A program made the position numbers and the translations under genes. Source: a virus. From it: DNA of 35,543 nt. Location: the UHGV virus genome UHGV-0085052; one strand, written 5' to 3'. This document shows positions 15,784-34,681 of the stretch, in pieces (the first letter of the stretch is position 1; every line of letters begins with the position of its first letter). The notes beneath the pieces were generated by a model. It was not told the DNA's origin and did no database searches. It saw nothing but the letters and a program-made list of their open reading frames with translations.

Positions 15784-16350
15784 ATGGCAAGTCAGGCTGA
15801 GGTCGCAGCACATTTATTGCTATCAGATCGTCGGCTTCGCGATCTCGCAAAACTTCCAGGAGCACCAGTCCCACAAGGACGTGGTGATTGGGAGCTAGAC
15901 GCCTGGCGCCATTTCTATATTCATTATCTCCGGAGTAATAGACGCGACACAGTTGGTACTGACGAACCGGAAGTGGGGGACAATTCTCCCGAAAAAAGTC
16001 GCGAGCAGTGGCTGAAAAATGAGGAACGACAGGAGCGAATCCTGATGGCACGAGTAAAACGCCGCATTCTCGCTAAACGTTACGCACCAATTGAATTAAT
16101 CAGCGTCGCTGTATCTCGCGTCGCCGTTGAATTACGTACCCGCGTCGAGTCGTGGCCACCACGATTGAAAAAGGTGTGGCCTGAAATGCCGCAGGAGGCG
16201 AGCAGTGTTTTACGAGAGGAGCTGGCGATAGCCCTGAATGAACTGGCAGACATACGAGTCGACTTCAGCGATTACGATGTTAGCGATATCGAACACGATC
16301 TCGACAGGGTTGAATCCCTTGCGCGTGACGATACCGATGACGGGGGTTGA
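15784..16350 (+). CDS. Terminase small subunit, lambda Nu1-like
   Basis: N-terminus (AHLLLSDRRLRDLAKLPGAPVPQGRGDWELDAW) aligns with lambda Nu1 (ADIFGASIRTIQNWQEQGMPVLRGGGKGNEVLYDSAAV); immediately upstream of and overlapping gpA-like gene. Confidence 0.6.
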   Translation: MASQAEVAAHLLLSDRRLRDLAKLPGAPVPQGRGDWELDAWRHFYIHYLRSNRRDTVGTDEPEVGDNSPEKSREQWLKNEERQERILMARVKRRILAKRYAPIELISVAVSRVAVELRTRVESWPPRLKKVWPEMPQEASSVLREELAIALNELADIRVDFSDYDVSDIEHDLDRVESLARDDTDDGG

Positions 16351-18202
16351 GTGGGCTGATAAATATTTTTACCTCCCTGAGGGCTCCAGTCACATCGCTG
16401 GCCACTGGACGACTCAACCGGTCCAAGTAGTGATGCTCAATATGATGACTAACGACGCGATAAAAATCGTGTCTGTTCGCAAATCAGCTCGTCTCGGTTA
16501 TACAAAAATACTTGTCGCGGCGCTGCTCTATTTCGCTGAGCACAAAAAACGTAGTGCCGTGGTCTATCAGCCTATCGATGACGAATCGGATGGATTTGTT
16601 GCTGACGAGGTTGACCCCGCTATCGCCGAAATGCCGGTGATTCAGAAAATTTTCCCCGACTGGGATAAAAGCAACGAGCGTAACAATCTCCAGCGTAAAG
16701 AGATGAGCGGCGCAATTATTGATTTTCGCGGTGCGAGTACACCGGGTAATTTTCGTCGACTGACAAAACAGGTTGTTGAAGGCGATGAGGTTGACGGCTG
16801 GCCGCTGGAAGTAGCAAAAAAAGGTAAAGGAGAGGGCTCGCCAATTGAACTTGCGCTCGTTCGAATTAAAGGCGCAGCGTACCCGAAGGCAATTTTCGGC
16901 TCGACGCCAACAGTTACCGGGAAAAGTCATATTGAAATGCTGGAAGACGCTGCCGATCTGACGTTTCGTTTTTACCTGAAATGCCCGCATTGTGGCGAGG
17001 AGCAGGTTCTGGTATTTGGTTTCGACGGCATCGGATACGGCCTCAAATGGGATAACAACTTACAGACCAACGAGGCGAAATCGTCGTCCGCATATTACCA
17101 GTGTTGCCACTGCCCGGAGCATTTTTACTATCGCGATCTCGAAAAAATGGAACTCTCGGGGCGCTGGATAGCCGAGGACTGCACCTGGACGCGGGACGGT
17201 ATTCATTTTTTTGATCACGACGGAGGTGTCGTTCGCGCGCCGAAACACGCGGCGATCGTGATAAACGCCCTGTATTCACTGAATCTCGACGGCTGGGGAG
17301 AGATTGTCAGCGAGTGGCTGAAAGCGAAAGGCGACCCACTCAAAGAAAAAACGTTTCATAACACGACGCTCGGCGAGCTCTGGAGCGACGTGGCCAGCGA
17401 GCAGCTGGAGCACGATATTCTCGTTAATCGCCGGGAAAAATATGCCAGCCAGGTTCCTGATGGTGTTGTTTATCTAACCGGCGGCACCGACTCTCAGACG
17501 TCCGGGCGCTACGAGTGTTACGTGTGGGGCTGGGGAGCAGAGGAAGAGTGCTGGCTGATTGATAAAACAATCGTCCTCGGTCGCTACGACGAGGAGGACA
17601 CACTGCAGCGCGTCGATGGTGTCATTCGCAAACAATACCGGCGCAGCGACGGGACCACAATCGGCGTCAGTCGCTGGGCGTGGGATACCGGCGGTATAGA
17701 TGCGCAGGTCGTTTATAACCGCTCGCTGAAACTCGGTCCGCTGTGGGTCATTCCAATTAAAGGCGCGAGCTCATACGGTCAGCCGGTCGTAAATATGCCG
17801 CGGACACGTAACGCGAATAAAGTTTATTTGTCGTTAATCGGTACTGACACAGCAAAAGATTTGCTCGCAATGCGCCTGCCGCTGGAACCCGACTCCAAAT
17901 CGGCGACAGCAGGCGCGATTCATTTTCCCCACGACGACGAAATATTCGGCACGACAGAGGCAAAGCAGCTCGTCTCCGAGGTTCTGATCCCGAAGTTGAT
18001 TAACGGTCGCGTCGTTTACCGCTGGGACAACCAGGGGCGGCGAAATGAGGCGCTCGACTGCTGGGTATACGGGTTGGCAGCGCTCCGTATCAGTAAAATT
18101 CGTTTCCAGCTCAATCTCGAGACGCTCGCTGAGCAACGGAAAAAATCACAAAACAAACTGTCTCTCGAGGAGATGGCCAGAATGCTCGGAGGGAGCTCAT
18201 GA
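16238..18202 (+). CDS. Terminase large subunit, lambda gpA-like (start could alternatively be the internal ATG near 16337)
   Basis: Extended collinear similarity to lambda gpA (VEWADKYFYLP, VRKSARLGYTKIL, ACPHCGEEQ, GLKW, TTLGE, IPIKGAS.YG.PV, RNEALDC.VY.LAALRIS). Confidence 0.9.
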   Translation: MNWQTYESTSAITMLAISNTISTGLNPLRVTIPMTGVEWADKYFYLPEGSSHIAGHWTTQPVQVVMLNMMTNDAIKIVSVRKSARLGYTKILVAALLYFAEHKKRSAVVYQPIDDESDGFVADEVDPAIAEMPVIQKIFPDWDKSNERNNLQRKEMSGAIIDFRGASTPGNFRRLTKQVVEGDEVDGWPLEVAKKGKGEGSPIELALVRIKGAAYPKAIFGSTPTVTGKSHIEMLEDAADLTFRFYLKCPHCGEEQVLVFGFDGIGYGLKWDNNLQTNEAKSSSAYYQCCHCPEHFYYRDLEKMELSGRWIAEDCTWTRDGIHFFDHDGGVVRAPKHAAIVINALYSLNLDGWGEIVSEWLKAKGDPLKEKTFHNTTLGELWSDVASEQLEHDILVNRREKYASQVPDGVVYLTGGTDSQTSGRYECYVWGWGAEEECWLIDKTIVLGRYDEEDTLQRVDGVIRKQYRRSDGTTIGVSRWAWDTGGIDAQVVYNRSLKLGPLWVIPIKGASSYGQPVVNMPRTRNANKVYLSLIGTDTAKDLLAMRLPLEPDSKSATAGAIHFPHDDEIFGTTEAKQLVSEVLIPKLINGRVVYRWDNQGRRNEALDCWVYGLAALRISKIRFQLNLETLAEQRKKSQNKLSLEEMARMLGGSS

Positions 18203-18432
18203 CGTCGCGCGAGGTTTTAACAGAACGGCTGCTGGAAGCGGAAATCGCTCTGCACAAATTATTAACGGGTAAATCGACCGTGTCGCTGTCTCACGGTGAT
18301 TCAGCGGGAAATAACCGGAGCTATCAATACTCACAGGCGAGTATTGAGCAGCTCCGAACGTACATTATCGAGCTGAAATCACAGCTCGGTCTGAGTACGG
18401 GACGCCGCCGTCCCGTGGGAGTTCGATTATGA
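18199..18432 (+). CDS. Head-tail joining protein, lambda gpW-like
   Basis: 77 aa; LLEAEIALHKLLTGKSTVSL...QLRTYIIELKSQ resembles lambda gpW; overlaps neighbours by 4 bp. Confidence 0.75.
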   Translation: MTSREVLTERLLEAEIALHKLLTGKSTVSLSHGDSAGNNRSYQYSQASIEQLRTYIIELKSQLGLSTGRRRPVGVRL

Positions 18433-20000
18433 CTGCTCAGCAGCTGCTCGGGCCTGACGGTAAAACGCCACTACGCCGTTACGCGGGGTATAACGGCGGC
18501 GGTCCCGGCTTCGGTGGCCAGCTGATTGACTGGAATGCACCACAGCAAAGCGCCGATGCGGCACTGCTGCCGAATTTTTATCGCGGTAACGCGCGAGCAG
18601 ACGATCTCGTTCGTAATAACGGCGTCGCGTCGAACGCCGTCCAGCTGCACCAGGATCATATTGTCGGCAATCTGTTTAAGCTGAGTTACCGTCCTAACTG
18701 GCGTTATCTCGGAATATCTCGCGAGGACTCACGGGCGCTGGCGCGTGACGTAGAGGTCGCGTGGACTGAATACGCTGAGGACCCGCATTGTACGATTGAT
18801 ATCGAGCGGAAACGGACGTTCACAATGATGATCCGCGAGGGCGTGGCTACTCACGCTTTCAACGGTGAAACCTGCGTACAACCAGTCTGGGAGAGTAGTG
18901 CCGGCAGCGTTTTTCGGACGCGATTCAAAATGGTCTCACCGAAACGGATTCGAAATCCGGGTTACGCAGCTGACACCCAATTTCGCCGCGCCGGTGTTGA
19001 TATCGATAAAAACGGGGCCGCGGTCGGGTATTGGATAGCCGAGGATACCTACCCCCTCGGCGGAGTCGGTAAATGTCGGCGTATCCCAGCACAGCTCAGC
19101 AGCGGCAGACACGCATTCATCCACATATTCGAGCCGCTCGAGGACGGACAGACCCGCGGAGATAACATTTTTTACAGCGTAATGGAGCGGTTGAAAATGC
19201 TCGATACGCTGCAGCAAACACAGCTGCAGAGCGCCATCGTGAAAGCGATGTACGCCGCCACAATCGAATCAGAGCTCGACAGCCAGCAGGCGTTTGAATA
19301 TATCGCCGGCGCGGGTACTGATATCGACTCGAACCCGCTGAATTCGTTTATTCAGAGTTACGTGACGTACTACAACGGCGCAAATATCAAGCTCGGTGGT
19401 GTGAAAGTTCCCCACCTGCATCCCGGCGACAAACTCAGTTTACAGACCGCTCAGAATGCTGATGCTGGTTTCAGTTCGCTGGAAAAATCACTCCTGCGTT
19501 ACGTTGCCGCTGGCGTCGGCACGTCATATGAGGAACTGAGTCGGGACTACAGCCAGGTCAGTTACTCCAGCGCGCGGGCCAGCGCAAACGTGAGCTGGCG
19601 TTTTTTCATGGGCCGTCGACGTTTTATCGCCGCACGACAGGCGTCACTGATGTTCTGCTGCTGGTTTGAGGAGGCTCTGGTGCGCGGAATTATCACCCTG
19701 CCACGCTCAGCGGTCCGGTCGTTTTATGAGGCGCGGAACTCCTGGACGAACGCGCTCTGGATCGGCGCTGGTCGCATGGCGATTGATGGGCTGAAAGAGG
19801 TTCAGGAGAGCGCCATGCGCATCACGACTGGCCTCAGCACGTATCAGAACGAACTCGCGCTGCAGGGGCAGGACTACGAGGAGGTCATGGAACAACAGGA
19901 ATACGAAATTCAGCGCCGGCGCGAAATGGGGCTGAGCGAACCATCCTGGTCAGTATCTCACCCCTCAAATACCAACGATAACGGCTGGGGAGGTAACTGA
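18429..20000 (+). CDS. Portal protein, lambda gpB-like
   Basis: Long collinear similarity to lambda gpB (LLGPDG, YAGYNGGGPGFGGQL, ALLPNFYRGNARADDLVRNNG, LHQDHIVG, RKRTFTMMIREGVA, MAIDGLKEVQE). Confidence 0.9.
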   Translation: MTAQQLLGPDGKTPLRRYAGYNGGGPGFGGQLIDWNAPQQSADAALLPNFYRGNARADDLVRNNGVASNAVQLHQDHIVGNLFKLSYRPNWRYLGISREDSRALARDVEVAWTEYAEDPHCTIDIERKRTFTMMIREGVATHAFNGETCVQPVWESSAGSVFRTRFKMVSPKRIRNPGYAADTQFRRAGVDIDKNGAAVGYWIAEDTYPLGGVGKCRRIPAQLSSGRHAFIHIFEPLEDGQTRGDNIFYSVMERLKMLDTLQQTQLQSAIVKAMYAATIESELDSQQAFEYIAGAGTDIDSNPLNSFIQSYVTYYNGANIKLGGVKVPHLHPGDKLSLQTAQNADAGFSSLEKSLLRYVAAGVGTSYEELSRDYSQVSYSSARASANVSWRFFMGRRRFIAARQASLMFCCWFEEALVRGIITLPRSAVRSFYEARNSWTNALWIGAGRMAIDGLKEVQESAMRITTGLSTYQNELALQGQDYEEVMEQQEYEIQRRREMGLSEPSWSVSHPSNTNDNGWGGN

Positions 20001-21310
20001 TGCCGTGGAACAATTTTCCGCACCTCGCCGCTAGGGCGTTCAATCAACCGCTTTTGCTGGAGCCCGCCTACGCGCGGGTATTTTTTTCTGCGCTGAGCGA
20101 CCGGTTCGGTACCGGGCGACTGATTGATACAGCGTCAGGAGAGGTAATGAACAGCGACGAAATGAACGCGCTCGCGATGGGGTGGGACAGCAGCGAGCGA
20201 ACACGCCAGAAATCGTATCGCGTGGAGCGTGGTATAGCCGTTCTGCCGGTTACCGGGACGCTGGTTCATAAATTGGGTTATATCAATCCGGTCAGCGGGA
20301 TGAGTGGTTACGACGGAATCGCAAAACGCCTGCAGCAGGCGATTTCTGATCCCGATGTTAAGGGGATCCTGCTGGATATTGATTCCCCTGGCGGTGAGGT
20401 CGCCGGCGCGTTTGATACCGCTGATTTAATCGCCCGGGCGCGAGAGCAAAAACCGGTGTGGGCGCTGGCCAGCGATACGGCCTGCAGCGCCGCCTATTTG
20501 CTGGCGTCAGCGTGTTCGCGCCGGCTGATAACGCAGACCGGCACGGTTGGTTCAATCGGTGTCCTGATGGCTCACCGCTGCGTCGAAAAGGCGCTGGAGA
20601 TTGCCGGCGTTGACGTGACGCTGATTTACGCCGGCGCGCACAAAGTCGACGGGAACCCGTATTCCCAGCTGCCCGACGACGTTCGCGACGAATTCCAGCT
20701 GAGTATTAACAGCACACGCGAGCAGTTCGCGCAAAAAGTCTCGGATTATACCGGGCTGAAAAAATCCAGGGTGCTGGCCACAGAGGCCGCAGTATTTATC
20801 GGCGCGGACGCGATTAAATCTGGTCTCGCTGATCAACTCGTTAATTACGCGGACGCTATCGCAGTGATGGCCGACGCACTGAAACCAAAAACGGAGCGAT
20901 TTATGCCAGGTACAACAGAAACCACGGCGGAGACCACGACCACAGAACAAACCGCGGCTACGACTACGGTCGCGCCGGTTGAGTCCAACGCGGAGCAGAT
21001 TCGCGCGGACGCCGCATCGAGCGAACTGGCACGCGTGATGGCCATCATCAACTGTCCCGAAGCTGTTGGGCGCGAGGCGCAGGCAAAAGCGCTCGCTGCC
21101 GTCCCCGGGATGACGGTCGGGCAGGCGCAGGCTGTCCTCGCGGCAGCACCGCAAACAGCGCAGGCGCGGACAGAAACGGCGCTCGATACACTCATGAGCA
21201 CTGAATCACCGGAAACTATTCAGGATGCCGGCAGCACCACGGCAACAGGAACAACCGCAAACGTCTCGATGCTGGTCGCGGCAGGGCGTTCAATTTTAGG
21301 GGATGAATAA
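20000..21310 (+). CDS. Head maturation protease/scaffold, lambda gpC-like (S49/ClpP-type; may include a nested Nu3-like scaffold frame)
   Basis: Collinear similarity to lambda gpC (LLLEPAYARVFF, GIAVLPVTGTLV, GILLDIDSPGG, KPVWALA, HKVDGNPYSQLPDDVR, AAAPQTAQAR). Confidence 0.9.
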   Translation: MPWNNFPHLAARAFNQPLLLEPAYARVFFSALSDRFGTGRLIDTASGEVMNSDEMNALAMGWDSSERTRQKSYRVERGIAVLPVTGTLVHKLGYINPVSGMSGYDGIAKRLQQAISDPDVKGILLDIDSPGGEVAGAFDTADLIARAREQKPVWALASDTACSAAYLLASACSRRLITQTGTVGSIGVLMAHRCVEKALEIAGVDVTLIYAGAHKVDGNPYSQLPDDVRDEFQLSINSTREQFAQKVSDYTGLKKSRVLATEAAVFIGADAIKSGLADQLVNYADAIAVMADALKPKTERFMPGTTETTAETTTTEQTAATTTVAPVESNAEQIRADAASSELARVMAIINCPEAVGREAQAKALAAVPGMTVGQAQAVLAAAPQTAQARTETALDTLMSTESPETIQDAGSTTATGTTANVSMLVAAGRSILGDE

Positions 21311-21639
21311 TGACCACAGAAACGTATAGCCCGGATGATTTTATTCTGGGACCCGATCTTGTTGTGACGACCGTCGGTCATTTTCAGGGCGGGATCAACG
21401 TACCCCGGCTGACACCGATTATGCTCGACGCTACTGCCGGGACGTTTAAAGTCTGGGACGGCTCAATTGGTAAGGCGGTTGGTCTCACAGCCACAGCAGT
21501 TAATACAGGCTCCAGTTCTGCAGACTGCTCGTACTACAAATCAGGATCGTTTCGTTATACGGCGATTAACTGGGGTACGGTTACTGACGTCGCTAAACGC
21601 AAATCAGCGTTTGCTGGTACGCCAGTCAGCGTTGGCTGA
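21310..21639 (+). CDS. Head decoration protein, lambda gpD-like
   Basis: 109 aa; LTPIMLDATAGTFKVWDG...YYKSGSFRY...KRKSAFAGT aligns with lambda gpD. Confidence 0.85.
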   Translation: MTTETYSPDDFILGPDLVVTTVGHFQGGINVPRLTPIMLDATAGTFKVWDGSIGKAVGLTATAVNTGSSSADCSYYKSGSFRYTAINWGTVTDVAKRKSAFAGTPVSVG

Positions 21640-21654
21640 TAGCAAAAAAAACTC

Positions 21655-21686
21655 AAAACAAGCCGCCTCCGGGCGGTTTTTTTATA
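21655..21686 (+). terminator. Hairpin plus T-run between gpD-like and gpE-like genes (terminator/attenuator-like)
   Basis: GCCGCC-TCCGG-GCGG followed by TTTTTTT, seen directly. Confidence 0.35.
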
Positions 21687-21698: not shown

Positions 21699-22733
21699 AT
21701 GAGCGATTCGTTTACTACGTCAGAACTGATTACCGCAACGCAGCAGGTATTTAAGTTCAATCCGTTGTTTTTAAGATTGTTTTTCCGTGAGACCTACACG
21801 TTTACGAGCGAAGAGGTTTTTCTGGATAAAATCCCGGGCAAAGTCAATATGGCGGTATATTGCGCCCCGATGATCACCGGCAAAGTTGACCGCACTCGCG
21901 GCTATTCAACGAACCACTTTAAACCTGGTTACACGAAACCGAAACACACGATCAATCCGAATATGAGCATCAAGCGCGCCGCCGGTGAGCAAATTGGCCA
22001 GCCAGAAACGCCGGTCGAACGTCGTGCAAAAATCATCATGCAGAATTTGCTCGACGAGGAGCTCAGCATCAGCCAGCTCGAAGAGTTCCAGGCAGTGCAG
22101 GCGGTTCTGTACGGTAAATACACCGTTTCCGGCAGCAATATCGAGACCTATGAGATCGACATGAGCCGCAGCGCGACGAATAACGTCACTCAGTCCGGTT
22201 CGACCGCCTGGTCGACTCAGGACGCGGAAACGTATGACCCGAGCGACGATATTGAATCCTATGCAGACCTCGCCTCCGGTGCGGTTAACGTGATCATCAT
22301 GGACGGTAAAGCCTGGAAGCAGCTTAAACGCTTTAAAAAATTCTGGACGGCACTGGATACGCGCCGCGGCTCAAACAGTCAGCTCGAAGTCGCGCTGAAA
22401 AACCTGGGCGATGTCGTTAGCTTTAAGGGCTATTACGGCGACACGGCGCTGTTCGTTTACAAGGGTCAATATATTGACCCGCTAACAGGCACTGAAATGC
22501 GTTATATGCCGGATAACACGATGATCCTGGGCAACACAAAAAATCGCGGGCTCCGCACCTATGGCGCGATCCAGGACGAGGACGCGCTGAAAGAGGGTAT
22601 CTGCGAAGCCACGCGCTATCCAAAAGTGTGGACGACGACCGGCGATCCGGCAGTGACGCAAACAATGACGCAATCCGCGCCAGCAATGGTGCTCACGGAC
22701 GCTGATGCTTTCGTCGTCGTAAAAATCGCGTAA
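21699..22733 (+). CDS. Major capsid protein, lambda gpE-like
   Basis: Strong collinear similarity to lambda gpE (FKFNPLFLRLFFRE, KPKH.INPNMS, IIMQNL.DEEL.I.Q.EE.QAV.AVL.GKYT, RRGSNS.LE.A.K.LG, LPDNTM.LGNT..RGLRTYG.IQD, RYPK.W.TTGDP). Confidence 0.9.
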   Translation: MSDSFTTSELITATQQVFKFNPLFLRLFFRETYTFTSEEVFLDKIPGKVNMAVYCAPMITGKVDRTRGYSTNHFKPGYTKPKHTINPNMSIKRAAGEQIGQPETPVERRAKIIMQNLLDEELSISQLEEFQAVQAVLYGKYTVSGSNIETYEIDMSRSATNNVTQSGSTAWSTQDAETYDPSDDIESYADLASGAVNVIIMDGKAWKQLKRFKKFWTALDTRRGSNSQLEVALKNLGDVVSFKGYYGDTALFVYKGQYIDPLTGTEMRYMPDNTMILGNTKNRGLRTYGAIQDEDALKEGICEATRYPKVWTTTGDPAVTQTMTQSAPAMVLTDADAFVVVKIA

Positions 22734-22765: not shown

Positions 22766-23179
22766 ATGAGCACAAAAACAGAATTGCTGGCGCGCATTGA
22801 CGATTTGAGCGCCCAGCTCGGTCGCGAATTACCGCGCAGCGGGACTATTGCTGAACTGGAATCAATCGTCGCCGGCGCTGAGTCAGAGCTCGATATTCTG
22901 AACGAGCAATCCGGCGACGCGAGTGATGCCGACACAAATGAGAGCACATCAGATGAAACTGATGATAACGGTGTCGAACAACAGTCAATCGCAAGTACTA
23001 CGTCACAACCAGAACTGTCCCCCGCCACGCGCCGCGTCAAGCTGCGTAACACGCTGGACGTTTATCACTACGTTAATGGGCGTCGCGTTCGCGAGATTGT
23101 TGCCGCTGGACGTGAAATTGTTGTTGATTCACCGGAGGTTGCAGACCTCATCGCAGCTGATCACGTTTACGCGCTATGA
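22766..23179 (+). CDS. DNA-packaging/head completion protein, lambda gpFI-like
   Basis: N-terminus (TKTELLARIDDLSAQLGRELPRSGTIAELESIVAGAESELD) aligns with lambda FI (TKDELIARLRSLGEQLNRDVSLTGTKEELALRVAELKEELD). Confidence 0.6.
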   Translation: MSTKTELLARIDDLSAQLGRELPRSGTIAELESIVAGAESELDILNEQSGDASDADTNESTSDETDDNGVEQQSIASTTSQPELSPATRRVKLRNTLDVYHYVNGRRVREIVAAGREIVVDSPEVADLIAADHVYAL

Positions 23180-23556: not shown

Positions 23557-23580
23557 GTGGGACCGCGGTCCCACTTAAGG
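23557..23580. repeat. Perfect 22-bp palindrome (AAGTGGGACCG/CGGTCCCACTT) at the head/tail module boundary
   Basis: Seen directly; no T-run on the + strand, so a simple terminator role is uncertain. Confidence 0.6.
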
Positions 23581-28517: not shown

Positions 28518-28751
28518 ATGTTTAAAGATGATGATTTTTCAAATATAAAATTACCGCGCTATTCTAGCACATCAGGCAATAGTATTGATGTTAAATGTGA
28601 TATCAGAGGTATCGGTAGTGATATTTTATTTACTGCATCTAAAACCGATTCCACATTATATGGAAGGAATTTATACGAGCGAGCTTTGGCCGGTGAATTT
28701 GGTGATGTCGCTGAATATGTGGCTCCAATTATAATCGAATCAGGAGAGTAA
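28518..28751 (+). CDS. Small fibre-associated ORF (77 aa), function unknown (not a recognisable P2 gpG-type chaperone)
   Basis: AT-rich ORF 5 bp after the fibre gene; no family recognised. Confidence 0.3.
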   Translation: MFKDDDFSNIKLPRYSSTSGNSIDVKCDIRGIGSDILFTASKTDSTLYGRNLYERALAGEFGDVAEYVAPIIIESGE

Positions 28752-28756: not shown

Positions 28757-30250
28757 ATGAGCACTAATTTTTTACATGGGCCCCGGACGCTCGAATACGA
28801 CGACGGCACAAAAGAGATCAACACAGTCGATATTTCAGTTATCGGGATTGTTGGTACTGCACCGGATGTTGGGCTAGGGGAGAGGGCATCATTAACGTGG
28901 GGATCACCGCTGGCAAATAATGTAGTCACCTTTTTTCCGGTCTATTATGGGGATTACGGAAATAAATTTGCAGTTGAAATTATTAAGAAGGGTATTTCTG
29001 GAATTAAATACGGATATAGCACACTTCCAGACGGAACAATAAAATTAACGCTCGGGACCGACAGCACAACAACGCCGGAACGGCTGGCGCAAGACGTAGT
29101 GACTCACGGTGAAGGGCGAACCGCTGAGGATTATATTTGTGTAGGCATTGACGAGGACAGTAAAAATGACGGAATTGTTTATCAGATGCCCGTCACGAGC
29201 CTGACGGGCGGTTCTGACGCTCCATTTCCAGTCAACATACCCACACTAATTGCAGGTAGTCAGAAAAAAGCGGCGCTCCTGGGTGCAGCAGGCACTCTCC
29301 CCGCAGCCATCACTGATATTTTAAATCAGACAGATGCGCTAATTGTTGTTGTTCGCGTAGACGAAAACACAGACGCGACAAAAGAGCGTGAGAACGTAAT
29401 CAACGGCATTAACGTTTTGTTAACATCGGGACAAATAAACCAGGTGACTCCACGAATTTTGATTGCACCTGATTACAGCGCTAATGACGACGTCGCTGCC
29501 GCGCTGGAGGTAGTCACAAATAAATTACGTGGAGTCGGCTATATTGATTCTCCACGCACGGCATCGCCCGCAGACGTCGTTAACCGCCGCCATAAATATA
29601 GCGCGCGCATGGAAATACTACGCCCGCGTGTGTTTTCCACGGGCGATCTCAGTGATCTGTCGCGTCCATATTCAGCTATCGCCGCTGGTTTACGAGCCAG
29701 AATTGACAACGAAAAAGGGTTTTGGTGGAGCAAATCTAATCAAAATATTTATGGAATAACAGGGCTTGAGCAGGTTGATGATTTCATTATTGGCGAGACA
29801 AACTGCACGGCGAACCTGCTGAACGCTAGTCAGGTAAGCACCATCATTCGCTATGATGGATTCCGACATTGGGGTAACTATCTGTGCAGCCTGGATCCGC
29901 AGTGGTCGTTTGAATGCGTTCGTCGGACAGCTGACGTAATTGAAGATTCTATAGCCCGGGCAATGATGACAGATTTTATTGATCGCCCGATAGACCTGCA
30001 TCTCGGAACAGACGTTGTCGAGTCGATAAACGCATATCTGCACAAATTAGAGGAGCAGGGTGCGATTAACGGAGGGCGTGCGTGGTTAGACGGTGAGTTG
30101 AATACAAAAGAAAGTCTGGCCGCTGGTAATCTTTATATTAATGTTGATTTTGGTCCGAAATCTCCGGCACAAACAATTACGTTAATGTACCGCATTAATA
30201 ATGACTATACAGTTGAAGCGCTGGCCTCCCTTTTTAAAGAAACAGCCTGA
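28757..30250 (+). CDS. Contractile tail sheath protein, P2 gpFI-like
   Basis: N-terminus (FLHGPRTLEYDDGTKEINTVDISVIGIVGTAP) and C-terminus (GFRHWGNYLCSLDPQWSFECVRRTADVIEDSIARAMM) align with P2 FI. Confidence 0.9.
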   Translation: MSTNFLHGPRTLEYDDGTKEINTVDISVIGIVGTAPDVGLGERASLTWGSPLANNVVTFFPVYYGDYGNKFAVEIIKKGISGIKYGYSTLPDGTIKLTLGTDSTTTPERLAQDVVTHGEGRTAEDYICVGIDEDSKNDGIVYQMPVTSLTGGSDAPFPVNIPTLIAGSQKKAALLGAAGTLPAAITDILNQTDALIVVVRVDENTDATKERENVINGINVLLTSGQINQVTPRILIAPDYSANDDVAAALEVVTNKLRGVGYIDSPRTASPADVVNRRHKYSARMEILRPRVFSTGDLSDLSRPYSAIAAGLRARIDNEKGFWWSKSNQNIYGITGLEQVDDFIIGETNCTANLLNASQVSTIIRYDGFRHWGNYLCSLDPQWSFECVRRTADVIEDSIARAMMTDFIDRPIDLHLGTDVVESINAYLHKLEEQGAINGGRAWLDGELNTKESLAAGNLYINVDFGPKSPAQTITLMYRINNDYTVEALASLFKETA

Positions 30251-30267: not shown

Positions 30268-30780
30268 ATGTCAGATAGCAACGCTTACTGCGCGTTTGCG
30301 CTATTCGTGCAGGGTGAACGGGTTTTAAATTGTACTGAATATACTCCAGTCGATATGAAAATAATCGAAGACGAGTTTAAAACAGGTGCGATGGATACAG
30401 CCATCACCTTGGATGGTGGTATGGAGAAAATGTCAGCAAGTTTTAAAGTTTCAGGTTCTGATTCTGGTGTTATGAGCTATTTCGGGTTAATACCGGGAGT
30501 CAAGACACGGTTTGAAATTCGTAGTGCGTACACAGACTCCTATGGAATAAATTTTGAGCGTATTGATACCTACGAGGGACTTATTACGGCAATCACTGAT
30601 GATGCCCAGGGGACTGATTCAAAATCGTCAGTGGGGCAATCAGTAACGATTGCTCCGAGCTATTATAAACGAGTTCAAAATGGACGAATTATTTACGAAA
30701 TTCATCCTGCAAAAATGAAACGCGTTATTAACGGTGTTGATGTTCTTGCGGGCGTCGCTCGAATCCTTCATGTATATTAA
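30268..30780 (+). CDS. Tail tube protein (P2 gpFII position)
   Basis: 170-aa ORF directly after the sheath gene; weak similarity to P2 FII; assignment mostly by conserved order. Confidence 0.7.
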   Translation: MSDSNAYCAFALFVQGERVLNCTEYTPVDMKIIEDEFKTGAMDTAITLDGGMEKMSASFKVSGSDSGVMSYFGLIPGVKTRFEIRSAYTDSYGINFERIDTYEGLITAITDDAQGTDSKSSVGQSVTIAPSYYKRVQNGRIIYEIHPAKMKRVINGVDVLAGVARILHVY

Positions 30781-30792: not shown

Positions 30793-31074
30793 ATGGAATC
30801 CTTATTAGACAGTATGACTATTACTCTCTCTCGACCGTTTATTATTAAGGGCGAGAGCTGCGATACAATTACTATTCGCGAACCAAAATTACGCGACCGC
30901 ATTATGTTCAGTAACGATAAAAGTGGTCTTGAAGAGCGGACAGCGACAATGCTGGCGCGCCTGGCAAATCTGGAGCGAGAGGATTTATATGCACTGCCTG
31001 CGTGCGATTACGATCAAATGGAGGCCGCGTTTAACGAACTGGTAAAGCCCCCGAAAGACCGACATCAGATATAG
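30793..31074 (+). CDS. Tail assembly chaperone, P2 gpE-like (possible E/E' frameshift extension into 31075-31207)
   Basis: TITLSRPFIIKGESCDTITIREPKLRD resembles P2 E (TVTLETPIKRGNTEIITITLRKPNSGELRG); an alternative frame stays open from the end of the gene to just past the tape-measure start. Confidence 0.7.
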   Translation: MESLLDSMTITLSRPFIIKGESCDTITIREPKLRDRIMFSNDKSGLEERTATMLARLANLEREDLYALPACDYDQMEAAFNELVKPPKDRHQI

Positions 31075-31182
31075 TTATTCTGATTCCGTTTATTGCGAAA
31101 AAACTTGCTATCCCGCCCGATACGCAAATGGACCTGCCGTATCGGGTTTTTAATTTCTATGTAAACGAGGTCATGAAAACCG

Positions 31183-32823
31183 ATGGCTATTTCTCAAAAC
31201 TTTAAAACGCAGGTTGTATTTGGGGGGCGAATAGACCCGTCGTTTCGGCGCGGTACAACAGAACTCAACGACGCCATTCGGCAGACGTCGTCTACTGTCG
31301 GAAAATTAACGAAAAGCCAGGATAAATTAAAAGACAAAATCGCAGCAATGAAACTGGCGGGTAAAGACGTTTCTGATTTATCTGCTCAGTATCAAAAGCT
31401 GGACCGTCGGATAAAAGCGACAACACAGGACCAGGAAGCTCTGAATACTCAGCTCGCCAAAAAACAGCGGCTGGAGAATTGGACGGGGCGCGCAAAAGGG
31501 GCTGCAAAATGGGGAGGGCGAGCCGCCGCAGGTGCGGTGAGGGCCACGGGACGGGGTATCAAATGGGGGACGCTAGGGGCTGTGGGGCTGCTCGGCGGCG
31601 CGGCTGCTGGCGCGCTGGCAATGAATGCAGAGACGTCAGAAAAGCTCGGTCTGGCGAAGTCCTACGGTGTTGGCATCGAAAAATACGCTGCGTGGGAAAA
31701 TATTGGTAAAGCTGCAGGGCTGAATGGCGAAAACGTAGGAGATCTGTCGGAGGAGTTGACTAATAAAATCGGGGAGGTTGGAAACGAAAAAAACCTGAAC
31801 CCCATGTTGTTTCAAATTGGCCTGACAAAAAAACGGATGGCTAAATGGGATCGAGAAAAACAGTTCAATGAAGTTATGCGGCGTATCTCTGAAATGAAGG
31901 ATGATCAACAGGCGGCGAGTCTGGCTGATCAGCTCATGGGGGGAGAGGCTAATAAAATAATGACCTATATGCGGGCGACTGGTAAAAGCTGGGAGCAGAC
32001 TATGTCGGACGCTCAAAAATCGAACCTGCTAACGAAAGAAGGGGCTGAGGGGGCAGCGCGCGCGCACGTATCCGTCACGAATCTATGGGGGGCAATTACA
32101 TCGGGGTTGGCAGATACGCTCGGTAAAATCGGGGGGGAACTCGCGCCGACGTTTGACGCTATGCGAGACGAGCTGGCATCCTGGTTTAAAGAGAATCAAG
32201 GGGGGGGTGTTGATAGTATTAAAGAATGGGTTAAGCCAGAAAATATGAAAAAAATGTGGGAGGGGATAGTCAGTTTTGGCGAGGCGTGCGTTAAATTCGG
32301 AAAAATAATTTGGGCAGTAGCAAAAAAACTTGAGTGGTTAATACCGGACGAGAAAACAGACGAGGAACAGCGCGTATATAACGAAGAATATAATAAAGCG
32401 TATCAGGAATTCATGGATAGTGGTGGTAAATATTCACCGAACCCAGGACTGGCAGCAGATAATGTAGCAAAAGCAAAGGCCGACGAAGCCGTAGATAATA
32501 TGCGACACCCTGAACGTCTTGCTCGTGCAAAATCACAGGCTGAATCAATGCTCTCGTTTGCTAACCCGTTTACTGGATTAATAAATAAAGACTCAACGCC
32601 TGAATCACAAAACTCAGCAACCTTGAATATAGACGCGCTGAGACAGGCAGTCGCAACTCCAGCGCCAGAGCAAAACAATAAAATTGAAATCAATATTATC
32701 GGAGCGGCAGATCCACAATCAACACAGCAGGCTGCTGCATCGGGTGTGCTCGACGGGTTGAGACAAGTTGCGAGTTCGTATAATCGTGGCGCGATGTTTG
32801 ATAAACCAGCGGCGGCGGGGTGA
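31183..32823 (+). CDS. Tail tape measure protein
   Basis: 546-aa Gly/Ala/Lys-rich, coiled-coil-like protein in the tape-measure position between E and U; contains G7-G8 homopolymer runs. Confidence 0.75.
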   Translation: MAISQNFKTQVVFGGRIDPSFRRGTTELNDAIRQTSSTVGKLTKSQDKLKDKIAAMKLAGKDVSDLSAQYQKLDRRIKATTQDQEALNTQLAKKQRLENWTGRAKGAAKWGGRAAAGAVRATGRGIKWGTLGAVGLLGGAAAGALAMNAETSEKLGLAKSYGVGIEKYAAWENIGKAAGLNGENVGDLSEELTNKIGEVGNEKNLNPMLFQIGLTKKRMAKWDREKQFNEVMRRISEMKDDQQAASLADQLMGGEANKIMTYMRATGKSWEQTMSDAQKSNLLTKEGAEGAARAHVSVTNLWGAITSGLADTLGKIGGELAPTFDAMRDELASWFKENQGGGVDSIKEWVKPENMKKMWEGIVSFGEACVKFGKIIWAVAKKLEWLIPDEKTDEEQRVYNEEYNKAYQEFMDSGGKYSPNPGLAADNVAKAKADEAVDNMRHPERLARAKSQAESMLSFANPFTGLINKDSTPESQNSATLNIDALRQAVATPAPEQNNKIEINIIGAADPQSTQQAAASGVLDGLRQVASSYNRGAMFDKPAAAG

Positions 32824-33248
32824 CAATGAGTGATGCAATAAACGGTGCTGAGGATATCATGCTCGGCCTGGGTGATTTCATTTTTGCTATATCAACAGTA
32901 GCGTACAACAAACTGCAACGTAGTGACGCCTGGCGCTGGGCTCAGCAAACACGATTCGGGAAAAACGACGCGTTGCAGATAACCGGACGACCGAACCCCA
33001 CAATCACTATCGATGGAAAGATAAACGCTTTATTTCTTGACGGGTGCGGCGTCGGCCTGTTGACAGATTTGCGTGCGCTTGGGAACACGGGAGAACCCCA
33101 GCAGCTAGTGCTGGGGACCGGGGAGGTGAAAGGGTACTGGGTGCTGCGAGAACTAACTGAAACGCAAAACAGCTTTTTGATGGGCGGAACCCCAAAATCG
33201 CAGGACTTTTCACTCACGCTCGAATATTATGGAGCTTCGCTAGATTAA
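32820..33248 (+). CDS. Tail protein, P2 gpU-like
   Basis: MLGLGDFIFAIS...RWAQQTRFGKNDALQITG aligns with P2 U (MLALGMFVFMRQ...RWPSNSRIGKSDAFQFLG). Confidence 0.8.
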   Translation: MTMSDAINGAEDIMLGLGDFIFAISTVAYNKLQRSDAWRWAQQTRFGKNDALQITGRPNPTITIDGKINALFLDGCGVGLLTDLRALGNTGEPQQLVLGTGEVKGYWVLRELTETQNSFLMGGTPKSQDFSLTLEYYGASLD

Positions 33249-33409
33249 TATAAAATCAAGCGCTACCAGAGCACTTAACAAGTATAAAAATAATAAAAAA
33301 AACTACGAACATAAATGTAAAACAACCTGATGGTATTTTTTTTGACGCCGAAATACTAATACCTCTCCGACTACTAAAATTAATTCTCATTATGAAATCC
33401 TTTTAATTA

Positions 33410-33634
33410 ATGGGGCCCCAAATGATTACATACACTACACGGGACGGTGACCGTCTCGATCAGATCTGCCTTGCTGTCTACGGGAGAACAGCAAAAACGA
33501 CAGAAACCGTGTTATATCAGGTTTTAAATTACGGCGTAACGGATATGTGTGCCGTGTTTCGTGCAGGAGAAAAAATTGTTTTACCAGAAATCGACCCCGA
33601 ACCGGTTAAAAAAGAAACGCAATTATGGGATTGA
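33410..33634 (+). CDS. Tail protein, P2 gpX-like (LysM-like)
   Basis: RDGDRLDQICLAVYGRTAKTTETVLYQ...VLPEIDPEPVKKETQLWD aligns with P2 X (LQGDTLDAICVRYYGRTEGVVETVLAA...VELPDVQTAPVAETVNLWE). Confidence 0.8.
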   Translation: MGPQMITYTTRDGDRLDQICLAVYGRTAKTTETVLYQVLNYGVTDMCAVFRAGEKIVLPEIDPEPVKKETQLWD

Positions 33635-33637
33635 TGA

Positions 33638-34681
33638 ATGAGTGATTACGTAAATACTGGCGTGGAAGCATGGAAGCCCAATTTTTATATATCTGCTGAT
33701 AATGAAAACATCACGGATAAAATAAGAAAAGGTTTGATCAATATCACGCTCACAGATTATGGCGGTTCGAGTAAACAGACAGACGAATTACGCGTAGCAA
33801 TCGTTTCTGAAACTCTGAAAATTCCGGCCCGCGGAGTAAAAATCAGTATTGGGCTCGGTTTCGGTAATCAGATAATTGATAAGGGTGTATACATCGTTGA
33901 TGGTGCGAGCAGTGGCGGTGAACCCCGGGTAGTTGATTTCACAGCAAAAGCAGCGCCGATGAACGCATCAAAAGGCTCTCCGACAGTTCAGAGCAAAAAA
34001 ACTCGCTCCTGGAGCGACGTCACTGTCAGCAATATCGTTGCAACAATAGCGAGCGATAACGGGCTAAAACCACGCGTATCAAAGCGGTTTGCAGACAATA
34101 TTATCACGCAACTCGATCAAGTCGGCGAGTCAGATATGCACCTGATGTCGAGACTAGCAACACGATTCGACGCTGTGAGTAAACCCGCGGGAGGGTACTG
34201 GATATTCCTGCCGCGCGGCGCGGGCGAATCTGTTAGCGGAGCGCCGCTTCAGCACTACACGCTCACGCGTCGTGATAACTCCAGCTGGGGTTATTCACGA
34301 AACGGACAAAGTGGCGATAGTGGTAGCGGTGGCGAAAATCCGGAACCGACGTATCTGATTAAATATCACGACACAGCAACTGGGCAGATCAAAGAATTGC
34401 GGACAGGTAGTGGCGGCGATCCTGTCATTGAATGGCCGGCAGTTGAGCCGTCGCTCGACGCAGCGAAAGAAGCTGCACCAGGGCTCAAGGGCGGTGCAGC
34501 TAAAAAAGAGTTCTCTATGACGTACACGACGCCAGCGACGCTCGATTTAGTGTCGCTGACAGCAGAATGCAAAGTCACAACTCAAGGATTCGGGACCGAG
34601 GAGGACCGGGACTGGACTATCAACACGCTGAGCCTGACGCTTGCTGAAAACGGCTTTTCGGTTCGGCTGTCTCTGGAGTAA
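33638..34681 (+). CDS. Tail protein, P2 gpD-like
   Basis: N-terminal (ITDKIRKGLINITLTD) and C-terminal (WTINTLSLTLAENGFSVRLSLE) similarity to P2 D (WTITKVTHFLNNSGFTTSLELE). Confidence 0.85.
   Translation: MSDYVNTGVEAWKPNFYISADNENITDKIRKGLINITLTDYGGSSKQTDELRVAIVSETLKIPARGVKISIGLGFGNQIIDKGVYIVDGASSGGEPRVVDFTAKAAPMNASKGSPTVQSKKTRSWSDVTVSNIVATIASDNGLKPRVSKRFADNIITQLDQVGESDMHLMSRLATRFDAVSKPAGGYWIFLPRGAGESVSGAPLQHYTLTRRDNSSWGYSRNGQSGDSGSGGENPEPTYLIKYHDTATGQIKELRTGSGGDPVIEWPAVEPSLDAAKEAAPGLKGGAAKKEFSMTYTTPATLDLVSLTAECKVTTQGFGTEEDRDWTINTLSLTLAENGFSVRLSLE

What the first reader, a model, noticed from the sequence alone, without database searches (positions are those of the whole stretch)
15784..34681. 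Chimeric virion module: lambda-like packaging and head genes joined to a P2/R-pyocin-like contractile tail
Nu1, A, W, B, C, D, E and FI are collinear with the lambda head region. They are followed without an intervening lysis or regulatory block by a myovirus tail cluster in P2/R-pyocin order (V, W, J, I, fibre, sheath, tube, E, tape measure, U, X, D). The junction near 23.2-24.8 kb contains a perfect 22-bp palindrome and two unassigned ORFs that would have to bridge a lambda-type connector to a P2-type tail. This mosaic is far less commonly described than standard lambda or P2 arrangements.
Basis: partly seen in the sequence, partly recalled or inferred. Interest (0 to 1): 0.45.

Follow-up and report, generated by a model that had tools for sequence, protein, structure and literature searches.

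The report
Lambda-type head, P2-type tail prophage
This stretch is the complete particle-building gene set of a common E. coli prophage that pairs a lambda-like head with a P2/R-pyocin-like contractile tail, a hybrid design that is real but already known and widespread.

Summary
Window 15784-34681 is one co-oriented block of 24 genes.

- **Head and neck (lambda order):** TerS, gpA, W, portal B, S49 protease C, D, E, FI and also FII. They are 35-63% identical to lambda.
- **Junction ORFs:** a distant gpZ-like tail-completion protein (23589-24269) and a homologue of the R2-pyocin collar PA0615 (24266-24802).
- **Tail (R-pyocin order):** V-W-J-I-fibre-sheath-tube-E/E'-tape measure-U-X-D, 26-41% identical to P2.

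So the two "unassigned bridging ORFs" are ordinary neck and tail-terminator proteins. The palindrome is 24 bp, not 22 (23554-23577). It sits exactly between FII and the Z-like gene.

This is not rare and not an artefact. The block occurs in 588 of 5426 complete E. coli genomes and in four deposited vB_EcoM phage records. FII-Z-collar-V-W-J is linked in all 61 related loci examined. Lambda/P2 chimeras have been described since 2001 (phage WO, Xylella XfP1/2).

A real module joint does exist at FII|Z. One viral contig has the same tail (76-89% aa identity for most tail proteins) on an unrelated HK97-type head, and nucleotide similarity starts 88 nt into the Z-like gene.

This copy of the prophage is defective: the integrase is truncated and the immunity and replication genes are deleted. 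Verdict: already known, low interest.

The parts
15784..16350 (+). Terminase small subunit (Nu1 position)
   Evidence: phrog_57 at 4e-38. No Pfam hit. Only weak N-terminal similarity to lambda Nu1.
16337..18202 (+). Terminase large subunit, lambda gpA type
   Evidence: GpA_ATPase plus GpA_nuclease. 42% identical to lambda A. ATG at 16337, in frame with the ORF that opens at 16238.
18199..18432 (+). gpW head-tail adaptor
   Evidence: PF02831 at 6e-16. 35% identical to lambda W.
18429..20000 (+). Portal, lambda family (gpB)
   Evidence: PF05136 at 7e-91. 63% identical to lambda B.
20000..21310 (+). S49 prohead protease/scaffold (gpC)
   Evidence: PF01343 at 3e-38. 55% identical to lambda C.
21310..21639 (+). 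Head decoration protein (gpD)
   Evidence: PF02924. 40% identical to lambda D.
21699..22733 (+). Major capsid protein (gpE)
   Evidence: PF03864 at 8e-59. 57% identical to lambda E.
22766..23179 (+). DNA packaging protein FI
   Evidence: PF14000. phrog_92 at 2.5e-31.
23176..23556 (+). FII head-closure / head-tail attachment protein
   Evidence: PF05354 at 3e-10. phrog_82 'Hc1' at 4e-24. No BLASTP match to lambda FII.
23554..23577 (.). Perfect 24-bp palindrome (hairpin) in the FII|Z gap, at the head/tail module joint
   Evidence: Sequence and position. Not expected by chance. Variants, one compensatory change, a terminator version in L038 and absence in some relatives.
23589..24269 (+). gpZ-like tail-completion / 'Neck1' protein
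   Evidence: phrog_27 at 2e-41. 4 of 27 homologues hit Pfam Minor_tail_Z, best 2e-12. AF2 model pLDDT 80 with no PDB fold match.
24266..24802 (+). Tail terminator/collar, homologue of R2-pyocin PA0615
   Evidence: phmmer E 0.0087. Profile E 4e-4, near full length. Foldseek 6u5j_A/6u5f_A at E about 6e-6, prob 1.0, followed by weak tail-terminator hits.
24768..25685 (+). Baseplate spike/assembly protein V
   Evidence: PF04717. 36% identical to P2 V.
25688..26029 (+). Baseplate wedge W (gp25-like)
   Evidence: PF04965. 38% identical to P2 W.
26026..26946 (+). Baseplate J
   Evidence: PF04865. 41% identical to P2 J.
26949..27575 (+). Baseplate/tail protein I
   Evidence: PF09684 at 4e-37. 34% identical to P2 I.
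27559..28512 (+). Tail fibre (short variant, 317 aa)
   Evidence: PF12571 N-terminal domain. Variable C-terminal part, but the C-terminal end motif seen in relatives is retained.
28518..28751 (+). Small fibre-associated ORF (77 aa), resembling the N-part of the ORF that follows the fibre in relatives
   Evidence: phrog_1795/1141. Alignment by eye to the ORFs that follow the fibre gene in 705R4 and L007.
28757..30250 (+). Tail sheath
   Evidence: PF04984 plus PF17482. 35% identical to P2 FI. Nearest named relatives listed.
30268..30780 (+). Tail tube
   Evidence: PF04985 at 2e-21.
30793..31205 (+). Tail assembly chaperone E (30793-31074) with putative -1 frameshift extension E' (open 31035-31205)
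   Evidence: PF10109. The -1 frame is open across the E-T gap and ends 22 nt into the tape-measure gene, as in P2 E/E'. No canonical slippery heptamer was found, so the frameshift is inferred.
31183..32823 (+). Tape measure protein (assigned by position)
   Evidence: phrog_3654 at 1.5e-248, function unnamed. No Pfam hit. Lies between E/E' and U, as P2 T does.
32820..33248 (+). gpU-like tail protein
   Evidence: PF06995 at 3e-31. 35% identical to P2 U.
33410..33634 (+). Tail protein X
   Evidence: PF05489 at 7e-16. 40% identical to P2 X.
33638..34681 (+). gpD-like baseplate hub / late control D
   Evidence: phrog_52 at 3e-92. 26% identical to P2 D at 3e-24. The Pfam hit is below the cutoff.

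Best explanation
Window 15784-34681 is the complete late morphogenesis gene block of a lambdoid myovirus prophage integrated at leuZ, next to yecA.

Shown by homology:
- A lambda-type cos-terminase, portal, S49 protease, decoration protein, capsid protein and FI would build and fill the head. gpW and FII would close the portal.
- A P2/R-pyocin-type baseplate (V, W, J, I, D, U, X), fibre, tube, sheath, E/E' chaperones and tape measure would build a contractile tail.
- The tail's head-proximal end would be capped by a homologue of the pyocin collar PA0615 (24266-24802). A distant gpZ-like tail-completion protein (23589-24269) accompanies it.

Inferred:
- Heads and tails assemble separately and join when FII on the head docks on the collar hexamer, as lambda FII docks on gpU.
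- The whole block is read as one lambda-style late transcript. A Q antiterminator (12022-12693) and the lysis genes lie directly upstream. No terminator with a T-run follows the FII hairpin, and none of the virion-block ORFs or the ORF after gpD scanned against Pfam hit an Ogr-type family.

Evolution:
- The neck-plus-tail block (FII-Z-collar-V-W-J...) is an old, conserved unit that always sits behind a lambda-family portal.
- What varies between lineages is the head module upstream of the Z-like gene, including the capsid type: lambda C/D/E or an HK97-type protease-capsid fusion.
- The exchange point lies in the FII|Z gap. The 24-bp palindrome there is most likely an RNA hairpin or terminator remnant marking that module boundary.
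For: Family assignments.

Identities: 35-63% to lambda head proteins and 26-41% to P2 tail proteins, with no hits to P2 head genes or to lambda tail genes.

Collar: sequence match E 0.0087, improving to 4e-4 with a profile, and fold match at E 6e-6, prob 1.0. Weaker fold hits to tail terminators follow it (lambda gpU, T5 p142, T1).

Z-like protein: phrog_27 and transitive Pfam Minor_tail_Z hits.

Gene order: collar-V-W-J-I-fibre-sheath-tube-E-T-U-X-D. X lies between U and D, unlike P2, where X sits in the head/lysis operon.

Prevalence: 588 of 5426 complete E. coli genomes, 442 of them with at least 80% coverage. Four vB_EcoM phage records match at 91%.

Co-divergence across the junction:
- L007: head 50-84%, neck 59-66%, tail 43-85%.
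- L006: head 42-80%, neck 44-48%, tail 37-59%.

Linkage: 61 of 61 related loci have FII immediately upstream of the Z-like gene. All that extend further have the collar downstream, followed by V-W-J. None has lambda U or V, or P2 R, S, N or Q. 29 have a lambda E-type capsid and 26 an HK97-type fusion.

L038: same tail (V 89, J 88, I 88, U 85, X 87%), but FII 33%, portal 24% and an HK97-type capsid. Nucleotide similarity begins at window 23676.

Regulatory context: Q, holins and endolysin upstream.
Against: - There is no experimental evidence here that particles are made, or that FII contacts the collar.
- The Z-like protein shows no significant direct similarity to lambda gpZ (hhalign E 0.12) and no solved-structure match. 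Its role is inferred from family labels and position.
- The collar model has only moderate confidence (pLDDT 64).
- No canonical slippery heptamer was found for E/E'.
- The hairpin is absent in some close relatives (L011 at 87% identity, L031, L035-37), so it is dispensable.
- This copy lacks the integrase N-terminus and the xis, exo, cI/cro and O/P genes. The block may never be expressed in this host.
- The 61 loci were collected by similarity to this Z-like subfamily, so the linkage applies only to that subfamily.
Confidence: 0.85

Rival explanations
1. A recent, unusual recombinant: a lambda-like prophage that only lately acquired a P2 or pyocin tail, so the junction ORFs are ad hoc adaptors and the arrangement is rare.
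For: A true head/tail exchange has occurred in this lineage. L038 has the same tail on an unrelated head, with the break at FII|Z. Among deposited phages, only four records carry this head together with this tail.
Against: Head, neck and tail diverge in step in L006, L007, L012 and L035. The block is in 11% of complete E. coli genomes. FII-Z-collar-V linkage holds in 61 of 61 loci, down to 24% identity. Lambda/P2 chimeras were described in 2001.
Confidence: 0.05
2. Two adjacent defective elements instead of one virion module: a lambdoid head remnant lying beside a P2-like tailocin or prophage remnant.
For: This prophage copy is defective. The tail gene order equals that of the R-pyocin cluster, including a PA0615-like first gene.
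Against: All 24 genes are co-oriented, with overlapping or closely spaced stops and starts. There is no att site, integrase or lysis cassette between head and tail. There is a single neck set, W-FII-Z-collar. The same contiguous block occurs in intact prophages with integrase, cI/cro and replication genes (TUM13936) and in records deposited as phage genomes.
Confidence: 0.04
3. The block is a decaying relic in this genome, with no function as a phage. It may at most be retained for some host benefit, such as tailocin-like killing or as a carrier of the defence genes upstream.
For: The integrase is truncated to residues 217-338, and the recombination, immunity and replication genes are deleted. 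The prophage carries defence genes: PD-T4-3, PDC-S31 and PDC-S39.
Against: Every virion ORF is full length and 93-100% identical to the intact TUM13936 copy, except the variable FI (81%) and the fibre cassette. No frameshifts or stops were seen. The deletion is therefore probably recent.
Confidence: 0.2
4. The 24-bp palindrome is a DNA binding site for a dimeric protein (a regulator or recombinase) and not an RNA hairpin.
For: It is a perfect palindrome with no loop. It lies exactly at the recombination joint.
Against: Variants change the two central bases, which would be the loop, while keeping the arms (705R4, L020, L026). L006 and L028 carry a compensatory A:T to C:G change. Other relatives have an unrelated GC-rich hairpin at the same place, and in L038 that hairpin is followed by T8, a classical terminator. 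Similar hairpins with T-runs follow genes D and E. The sequence occurs only once in the window.
Confidence: 0.1

Closest known systems
Escherichia phage vB_EcoM-705R4 (ON470624) and the leuZ/yecA prophages of E. coli (e.g. strain TUM13936, NZ_CP134358)
   Same: The same element: 91-96% nucleotide identity over 94-98% of the block, with identical gene order including FII-Z-collar.
   Different: The fibre cassette and part of the sheath differ (sheath 78% to 705R4; the fibre C-terminus is replaced). The window copy has lost its early region.
Bacteriophage lambda, head and neck module (Nu1-A-W-B-C-D-E-FI-FII-Z)
   Same: Same families, same order, 35-63% identity for A, W, B, C, D and E. Late genes sit behind a Q antiterminator and lysis genes.
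   Different: TerS, FII and Z are too diverged for BLASTP. After Z comes a contractile-tail collar and P2-type tail in place of U-V-G-T-H-M-L-K-I-J.
Bacteriophage P2 tail genes and the R2 pyocin cluster PA0615-PA0628
   Same: V, W, J, I, fibre, sheath, tube, E/E', T, U, X and D are homologues, 26-41% identical to P2. The first gene is homologous to the pyocin collar PA0615. The placement of X between U and D and one uninterrupted cluster match my recollection of the pyocin gene order (own knowledge, not tested here).
   Different: There are no P2 head genes, and no P2 R or S detectable. No Ogr-type family was hit by the virion-block ORFs scanned against Pfam. Unlike P2, the tail genes are not split into three operons by lysis and accessory genes. 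Unlike a pyocin, a full head module is attached. The sheath is about 100 aa longer than P2 FI.
Jilinvirus / Iiscvirinae myoviruses (Arya, vB_EcoM-ep3, ECO1230-10, HeidiAbel) and relatives (Hafnia yong2, Vibrio Valp1)
   Same: A lambda-type terminase and lambda-family portal, then FII-Z-like-collar-like-V-W-J-I ... sheath-tube-E-T-U-X-D.
   Different: The capsid is an HK97-type protease-capsid fusion instead of lambda C/D/E. Only 25-45% identity. Some have sheath/tube placed before W-J-I.
Wolbachia phage WO and Xylella XfP1/XfP2 'lambda/P2 chimeras'
   Same: Described as having lambda-like terminase, portal and minor capsid C joined to P2-like baseplate and tail genes. The WORiC gene list even has a 'minor tail protein Z' near baseplate V (PMC3235987). 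The WO sheath is 42% identical over 64% of this sheath.
   Different: Different hosts, integration system and accessory modules. WO module order is rearranged in some variants (PMC9203015). I did not compare WO head genes directly.

Membership tests
Lambda-type head/packaging module | gpA-type large terminase, lambda-family portal, S49 protease C, decoration D, capsid E, FI, W and FII in lambda order | tested here: met
   All Pfam families score above the gathering cutoff, in lambda order. 35-63% identity to lambda for A, W, B, C, D and E.
Lambda-type head/packaging module | Nu1-type small terminase | tested here: inconclusive
   phrog_57 TerS, but no Pfam Phage_Nu1 hit. 22% identity over 51 aa to Nu1, E 0.012. 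Relatives L007 and L008 do carry PF07471.
Lambdavirus-like siphovirus (whole virion) | Non-contractile tail genes U, V, G/T, H, M, L, K, I, J | tested here: not met
   No hit to lambda U, V or G in the window or to lambda U or V in 61 related loci; lambda H, M, L, K, I and J were not queried. Sheath and baseplate genes are present instead.
P2-type contractile tail | Homologues of V, W, J, I, H (N-terminal part), FI sheath, FII tube, E, U, X and D | tested here: met
   Pfam families. BLASTP to P2 proteins at 26-41% identity, E 7e-4 to 4e-67. The tape measure is assigned by position only.
P2-type contractile tail | E/E' programmed -1 frameshift chaperone pair | tested here: inconclusive
   The -1 frame is open from 31035 to 31205 and overlaps the start of the tape-measure gene, as in P2. 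No canonical X XXY YYZ site was found.
Peduoviridae (P2-like phages) | P2 head and packaging genes Q, P, O, N, M, L | tested here: not met
   No BLASTP hit at E<=1 between the head/packaging proteins of the window and P2 Q, P, O, N, M or L (only short chance-level alignments of tail or fibre proteins, E 0.24-0.95). None in 61 related loci for N or Q.
Peduoviridae (P2-like phages) | Tail completion genes R and S, and Ogr-type late activation | tested here: not met
   hhalign of the two junction proteins against P2 R and S was not significant. A lambda-type Q gene is present upstream. Ogr was not searched for exhaustively.
R-type pyocin / tailocin | PA0615-type collar followed by V-W-J-I-fibre-sheath-tube-E-T-U-X-D | tested here: met
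   Collar homology. Gene order. The pyocin gene order itself is from my own knowledge.
R-type pyocin / tailocin | Absence of capsid and packaging genes | tested here: not met
   A full, intact head module lies directly upstream in the same orientation.
Jilinvirus / Iiscvirinae | Close genome-wide relatedness and an HK97-type protease-capsid fusion | tested here: not met
   Only 24-45% aa identity to Arya, with no hit for W, C, D, E, FI, FII, the collar, the 77-aa ORF or the tape measure. The capsid here is lambda E type, against the fusion in Arya, yong2 and L008.
Lambda gpZ family (Pfam PF06763) | Direct match of 23589-24269 to the family model | tested here: inconclusive
   The window protein has no Pfam hit. 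4 of 27 homologues (33-44% identical to it) hit PF06763, best 2e-12. hhalign to lambda Z gave E 0.12. It matches phrog_27 'tail completion or Neck1' at 2e-41.

The most novel reading that the evidence does not exclude
The Z-like protein and collar, which travel with the contractile tail, together with the FII encoded just upstream of the joint, may form a portable neck cassette. It would let any head built on a lambda-family portal accept a contractile tail. The FII|Z intergenic hairpin would mark a preferred crossover point for swapping whole head modules between myoviruses. If so, the long-unexplained lambda gpZ family would have a function that does not depend on tail type, and it could be located structurally in this simple system.
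Probability: 0.3. Interest if true: 0.35.

Novelty: already known. Interest (0 to 1): 0.15.

Why it matters
It matters little as a discovery. The element is a common, already-deposited E. coli prophage type, and lambda-head/P2-tail hybrids have been in the literature for two decades.

There are three modest gains:
1. The two 'hypothetical proteins' that PGAP leaves unnamed at the junction can now be annotated as a gpZ-like tail-completion protein and a PA0615-like tail collar/terminator.
2. The head/tail module boundary can be placed at the FII|Z gap. A natural example exists of the same tail on two different head types.
3. gpZ-family proteins have no solved structure and an unclear role in lambda. 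They are shown here to be tightly linked to a contractile tail, which offers a second system for studying them.

Tried and rejected
- **Profile comparisons.** hhalign of the Z-like alignment against lambda Z and P2 S, and of the collar alignment against P2 R and lambda U, were all non-significant. The alignments were shallow.
- **Structure searches for the Z-like protein.** Foldseek of the Z-like model against the PDB gave nothing below E 0.2. Against BFVD the best hits (E about 2e-5) were unnamed, and the named hits were weak HK97-gp10-like or 'virion morphogenesis' proteins (E 0.1-0.2). Sequence and profile searches of the Z-like protein and FII against PDB chains gave nothing.
- **Literature.** The phrases 'lambda-like head' with 'P2-like tail' or with 'contractile tail' found no papers. 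The one paper naming vB_EcoM-705R4 concerns CRISPR-Cas diversity in urological E. coli, judging by its title and abstract; I did not read it. A 2026 bioRxiv P2 tail preprint that mentions PA0615 could not be opened. The P2-like virus survey (PMC13100340) says nothing on hybrids.
- **Locus collection.** The GTDB genome scan with the Z-like profile returned only 4 loci, because the peptide pattern was strict.
- **E/E' frameshift.** No canonical slippery heptamer was found, and the E' extension has no Pfam match.
- **Fibre pseudogene idea.** I considered that the 317-aa fibre plus the 77-aa ORF might be a broken fibre gene. I rejected this as unproven. The fibre ends with the same C-terminal motif as intact relatives, and the 77-aa ORF matches the N-part of a separate downstream ORF in relatives.
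- **Mu-like (SfV-type) tail.** Rejected, because the Pfam families and BLASTP matches are P2-type.

Full report
**1. What is there**

The window is a 35.5-kb prophage. From 15784 to 34681 it carries 24 co-oriented ORFs whose stops and starts overlap or are separated by at most 162 bp.

Head and neck genes:
- gpA terminase, ATPase plus nuclease domains. The start is at the ATG at 16337.
- gpW, lambda-family portal, Peptidase_S49, lambda D, capsid E and FI.

The first gene (15784-16350) is a small terminase by PHROG (phrog_57, 4e-38). It has no Pfam Nu1 hit and only marginal similarity to lambda Nu1.

Tail genes:
- V, W (gp25), J, I, a tail-collar fibre, sheath, tube, the E-type chaperone, U and X.
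- gpD is below the Pfam cutoff but clear by PHROG (3e-92) and by BLASTP to P2 D (3e-24).

BLASTP against lambda and P2 proteins taken from the reference records:

| Reference | Protein: % identity |
|---|---|
| Lambda | A 42, W 35, B 63, C 55, D 40, E 57, FI 44 (partial) |
| P2 | V 36, W 38, J 41, I 34, sheath 35, tube 30, U 35, X 40, D 26 |

There is no match to any P2 head gene or any lambda tail gene. The tail is therefore P2-type and not siphovirus-type.

**2. The junction ORFs**

*ORF 24266-24802 (178 aa).* This ORF is a homologue of the R2-pyocin collar protein PA0615.
- phmmer E 0.0087.
- A profile of 11 homologues gives E 4e-4 over nearly the full length, including a shared C-terminal G-x-HE-x-DY motif.
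- An AlphaFold model (pLDDT 64, pTM 0.65) finds the two collar structures 6u5j and 6u5f as its only strong Foldseek hits (E about 6e-6, prob 1.0).
- Weak hits to tail terminators follow: lambda gpU, T5 p142 and T1.

I conclude it is the head-proximal cap of the tail. It is the first gene of a cluster in the same order as I recall for the pyocin locus PA0615-PA0628. That recollection is my own knowledge and was not tested here.

*ORF 23589-24269 (226 aa).* This ORF is best described as a very diverged gpZ-family or 'Neck1' tail-completion protein.
- It falls in phrog_27, 'tail completion or Neck1' (2e-41).
- It has no Pfam hit itself. Four of its 27 aligned homologues (33-44% identical to it) hit Pfam Minor_tail_Z, best 2e-12.
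- Several phage records annotate its relatives as 'minor tail protein Z'.
- Direct profile comparison with lambda Z is not significant.
- A good model (pLDDT 80) has no PDB counterpart. In BFVD its best matches are unnamed, and the named ones are weak HK97-gp10-like matches.

The neck gene order here is W ... FII - Z-like - terminator. That is the lambda order W ... FII - Z - U, with a contractile-tail terminator in U's place. No exotic bridge is needed.

**3. The palindrome**

The palindrome is a perfect 24-mer at 23554-23577, TAAGTGGGACCG/CGGTCCCACTTA. It overlaps the FII stop codon and lies just before the Shine-Dalgarno sequence and GTG start of the Z-like gene. It is not a chance feature. 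No 12-nt-arm inverted repeat appeared in 100 shuffles, and the expectation is 0.02.

Behaviour across relatives points to an RNA hairpin and not a DNA binding site:
- The central two bases vary in 705R4, L020 and L026.
- L006 and L028 have a compensatory A:T to C:G change in the stem.
- L007, L032 and L034 have a different GC-rich hairpin at the same spot.
- L038 has a hairpin followed by T8, a classical intrinsic terminator.
- L011 (87% identical), L031 and L035-37 have none.

In the window no T-run follows on the + strand. Terminator-like hairpins with T-runs also follow genes D and E. I read the palindrome as a dispensable intergenic RNA hairpin or terminator remnant at a module boundary. 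It would be read through by Q-modified polymerase, which is an inference.

**4. Is it an unusual chimera?**

It is not. Four lines of evidence show the arrangement is common and old.

*Prevalence.* The block is found in 588 of 5426 complete E. coli genomes, always chromosomal. In 442 of them the match covers at least 80% of the block. Four GenBank phage records (vB_EcoM-705R4 and others) match at 91%. PGAP annotates the same order in strain TUM13936 and leaves only the two junction proteins and the tape measure as 'hypothetical'.

*Co-divergence.* More distant relatives keep the same lambda head plus P2 tail, with similar divergence on both sides of the junction:

| Locus | Head | Neck | Tail |
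|---|---|---|---|
| L007 | 50-84% | 59-66% | 43-85% |
| L006 (Klebsiella aerogenes) | 42-80% | 44-48% | 37-59% |

L012 and L035 behave the same way.

*Linkage.* I examined 61 loci carrying a relative of the Z-like gene, from IMG/VR, GTDB and Logan. The results are:
- All 61 have FII immediately upstream.
- All that extend far enough have the collar-like gene immediately downstream, then V-W-J and sheath/tube. The one odd exception is L041.
- None has lambda U or V, or P2 R, S, N or Q.
- The portal is always lambda-family.
- The capsid is lambda E type (with C and D) in 29 loci and an HK97-type protease-capsid fusion in 26. The second type is the Jilinvirus/Iiscvirinae layout.

*Literature.* PMC3235987 states that WO phages combine lambda-like terminase, portal and minor capsid with P2-like baseplate genes, citing Masui et al. 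[quoted passage not shown] The BASEL paper describes Jilinvirus as small myoviruses with prophage relatives in E. coli.

**5. A real module joint**

L038 (IMGVR_UViG_2529293142_000021) carries the same tail on an unrelated head:

| Region | Protein: % aa identity to the window |
|---|---|
| Tail | V 89, J 88, I 88, U 85, X 87, tube 78, tape measure 76 |
| Neck | collar 63, Z-like 66 (N-terminal part) |
| Head side | FII 33, portal 24, gpA 27, HK97-type capsid |

Nucleotide similarity starts at window 23676, which is 88 nt into the Z-like gene. Apart from the fibre cassette and the adjoining start of the sheath gene (no match 28087-28755 and 28868-29239), it runs on to gene X. Head modules have therefore been exchanged against this tail, and the break lies in the FII|Z gap where the hairpin sits. 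The Z-like gene travels with the tail, as Z is classed in lambda.

**6. Mechanism**

Shown by homology:
- Lambda-type packaging and capsid assembly.
- P2/pyocin-type baseplate, tube, sheath and collar.

Inferred:
- Separate head and tail assembly pathways, joined by FII docking on the collar hexamer.
- A -1 frameshift product E'. The -1 frame is open from 31035 to 31205 and overlaps the tape-measure start as in P2, but no canonical slippery site was found.
- Single late-operon expression under the lambda-type Q protein (12022-12693), with holins and endolysin at 12806-13940. P2, by contrast, uses several separately activated late operons.

**7. State of this copy**

The window runs from just after leuZ to the partial tRNA repeat at attR. 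Only integrase residues 217-338 remain (109-474, minus strand). The xis/exo region and the cI-cro-repO-dnaB region that are present in TUM13936 are deleted here.

All virion ORFs are nonetheless full length and 93-100% identical to the intact copy. The exceptions are FI (81%) and the variable fibre cassette. Electron microscopy should therefore be done on a strain with an intact copy.

**8. Verdict**

The 'chimeric head/tail' reading is right, but the arrangement is a known, widespread and old design, and this element is already in the public databases. Novelty: already known. Interest: 0.15.

Noticed in passing
window 1-1700: The prophage is defective. Only the C-terminal third of the tyrosine integrase remains (residues 217-338; 109-474, minus strand). 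Two deletions relative to strain TUM13936 remove int-N/xis/exonuclease and cI/cro/ydaT/repO/dnaB. The window starts 26 bp after leuZ and ends in the partial tRNA copy of attR (...GGTTCAAGTCCCGCTCCGGGTACC).
   Followed up: yes
window 1866-9599: A low-GC accessory island lies between the early remnant and the Q region. It encodes an LprI-domain protein, a 411-aa HNH endonuclease, PD-T4-3 (GIY-YIG; PADLOC 6.5e-138), a DUF2971 protein matching candidate PDC-S31, and a 617-aa DUF7380/DUF4209 protein matching candidate PDC-S39 (3.9e-265). This looks like a prophage-borne anti-phage defence hotspot.
   Followed up: partly
window 1554-1594 and 9865-9905: A 41-nt direct repeat (90% identical; AGGGCAGGTGTTGACGTTAGAACAAAAGAATGGCGATTTTT) brackets the defence-gene island. 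It may be a repeated promoter/operator or the edges of a cargo-exchange hotspot.
   Followed up: no
window 21660-21679 and 22732-22748: GC-rich hairpins followed by T-runs lie directly after the decoration gene D and after the capsid gene E, on the coding strand. They are terminator-like elements inside the late operon, presumably read through or used to stabilise mRNA.
   Followed up: no
window 27900-28751: The receptor-binding cassette is swapped. GC is about 40%. The fibre is only 317 aa against 391-407 aa in relatives. It is followed by a 77-aa ORF that resembles only the N-terminal part of the 111-129-aa ORF that follows the fibre gene in 705R4 and L007. In TUM13936 that segment is fused to the fibre C-terminus.
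   Followed up: partly
window 14556-15695 (minus strand): Three reverse-strand ORFs sit between the lysis genes and the small terminase. One has a weak Lar-type restriction-alleviation zinc-ribbon match, below the Pfam cutoff.
   Followed up: no
L038 (IMGVR_UViG_2529293142_000021) 9968-10683: In this contig the Z-like gene is split into two overlapping ORFs (9968-10399 and 10312-10683). That means a frameshift or a sequencing error in the gene at the recombination joint.
   Followed up: no
L006 11223-12349; L012, L035-37, L046-48: Some relatives carry an extra tube-like gene and/or a gpU-like gene between the collar and V. Hafnia phage yong2 places sheath-tube-E-T-U-X-D before W-J-I. The tail gene order within this group is therefore not fixed.
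   Followed up: no
window 33249-33409: A 162-bp gap between U and X contains a minus-strand hairpin and a promoter-like site. The 705R4 record annotates a small antisense ORF there.
   Followed up: no
L002 43813-48903 (E. coli TUM13936): The TUM13936 chromosome holds a second, partly degraded copy of the same head module about 10 kb downstream of the first one. Its terminase is split, its portal is frameshifted and it interrupts araH.
   Followed up: no
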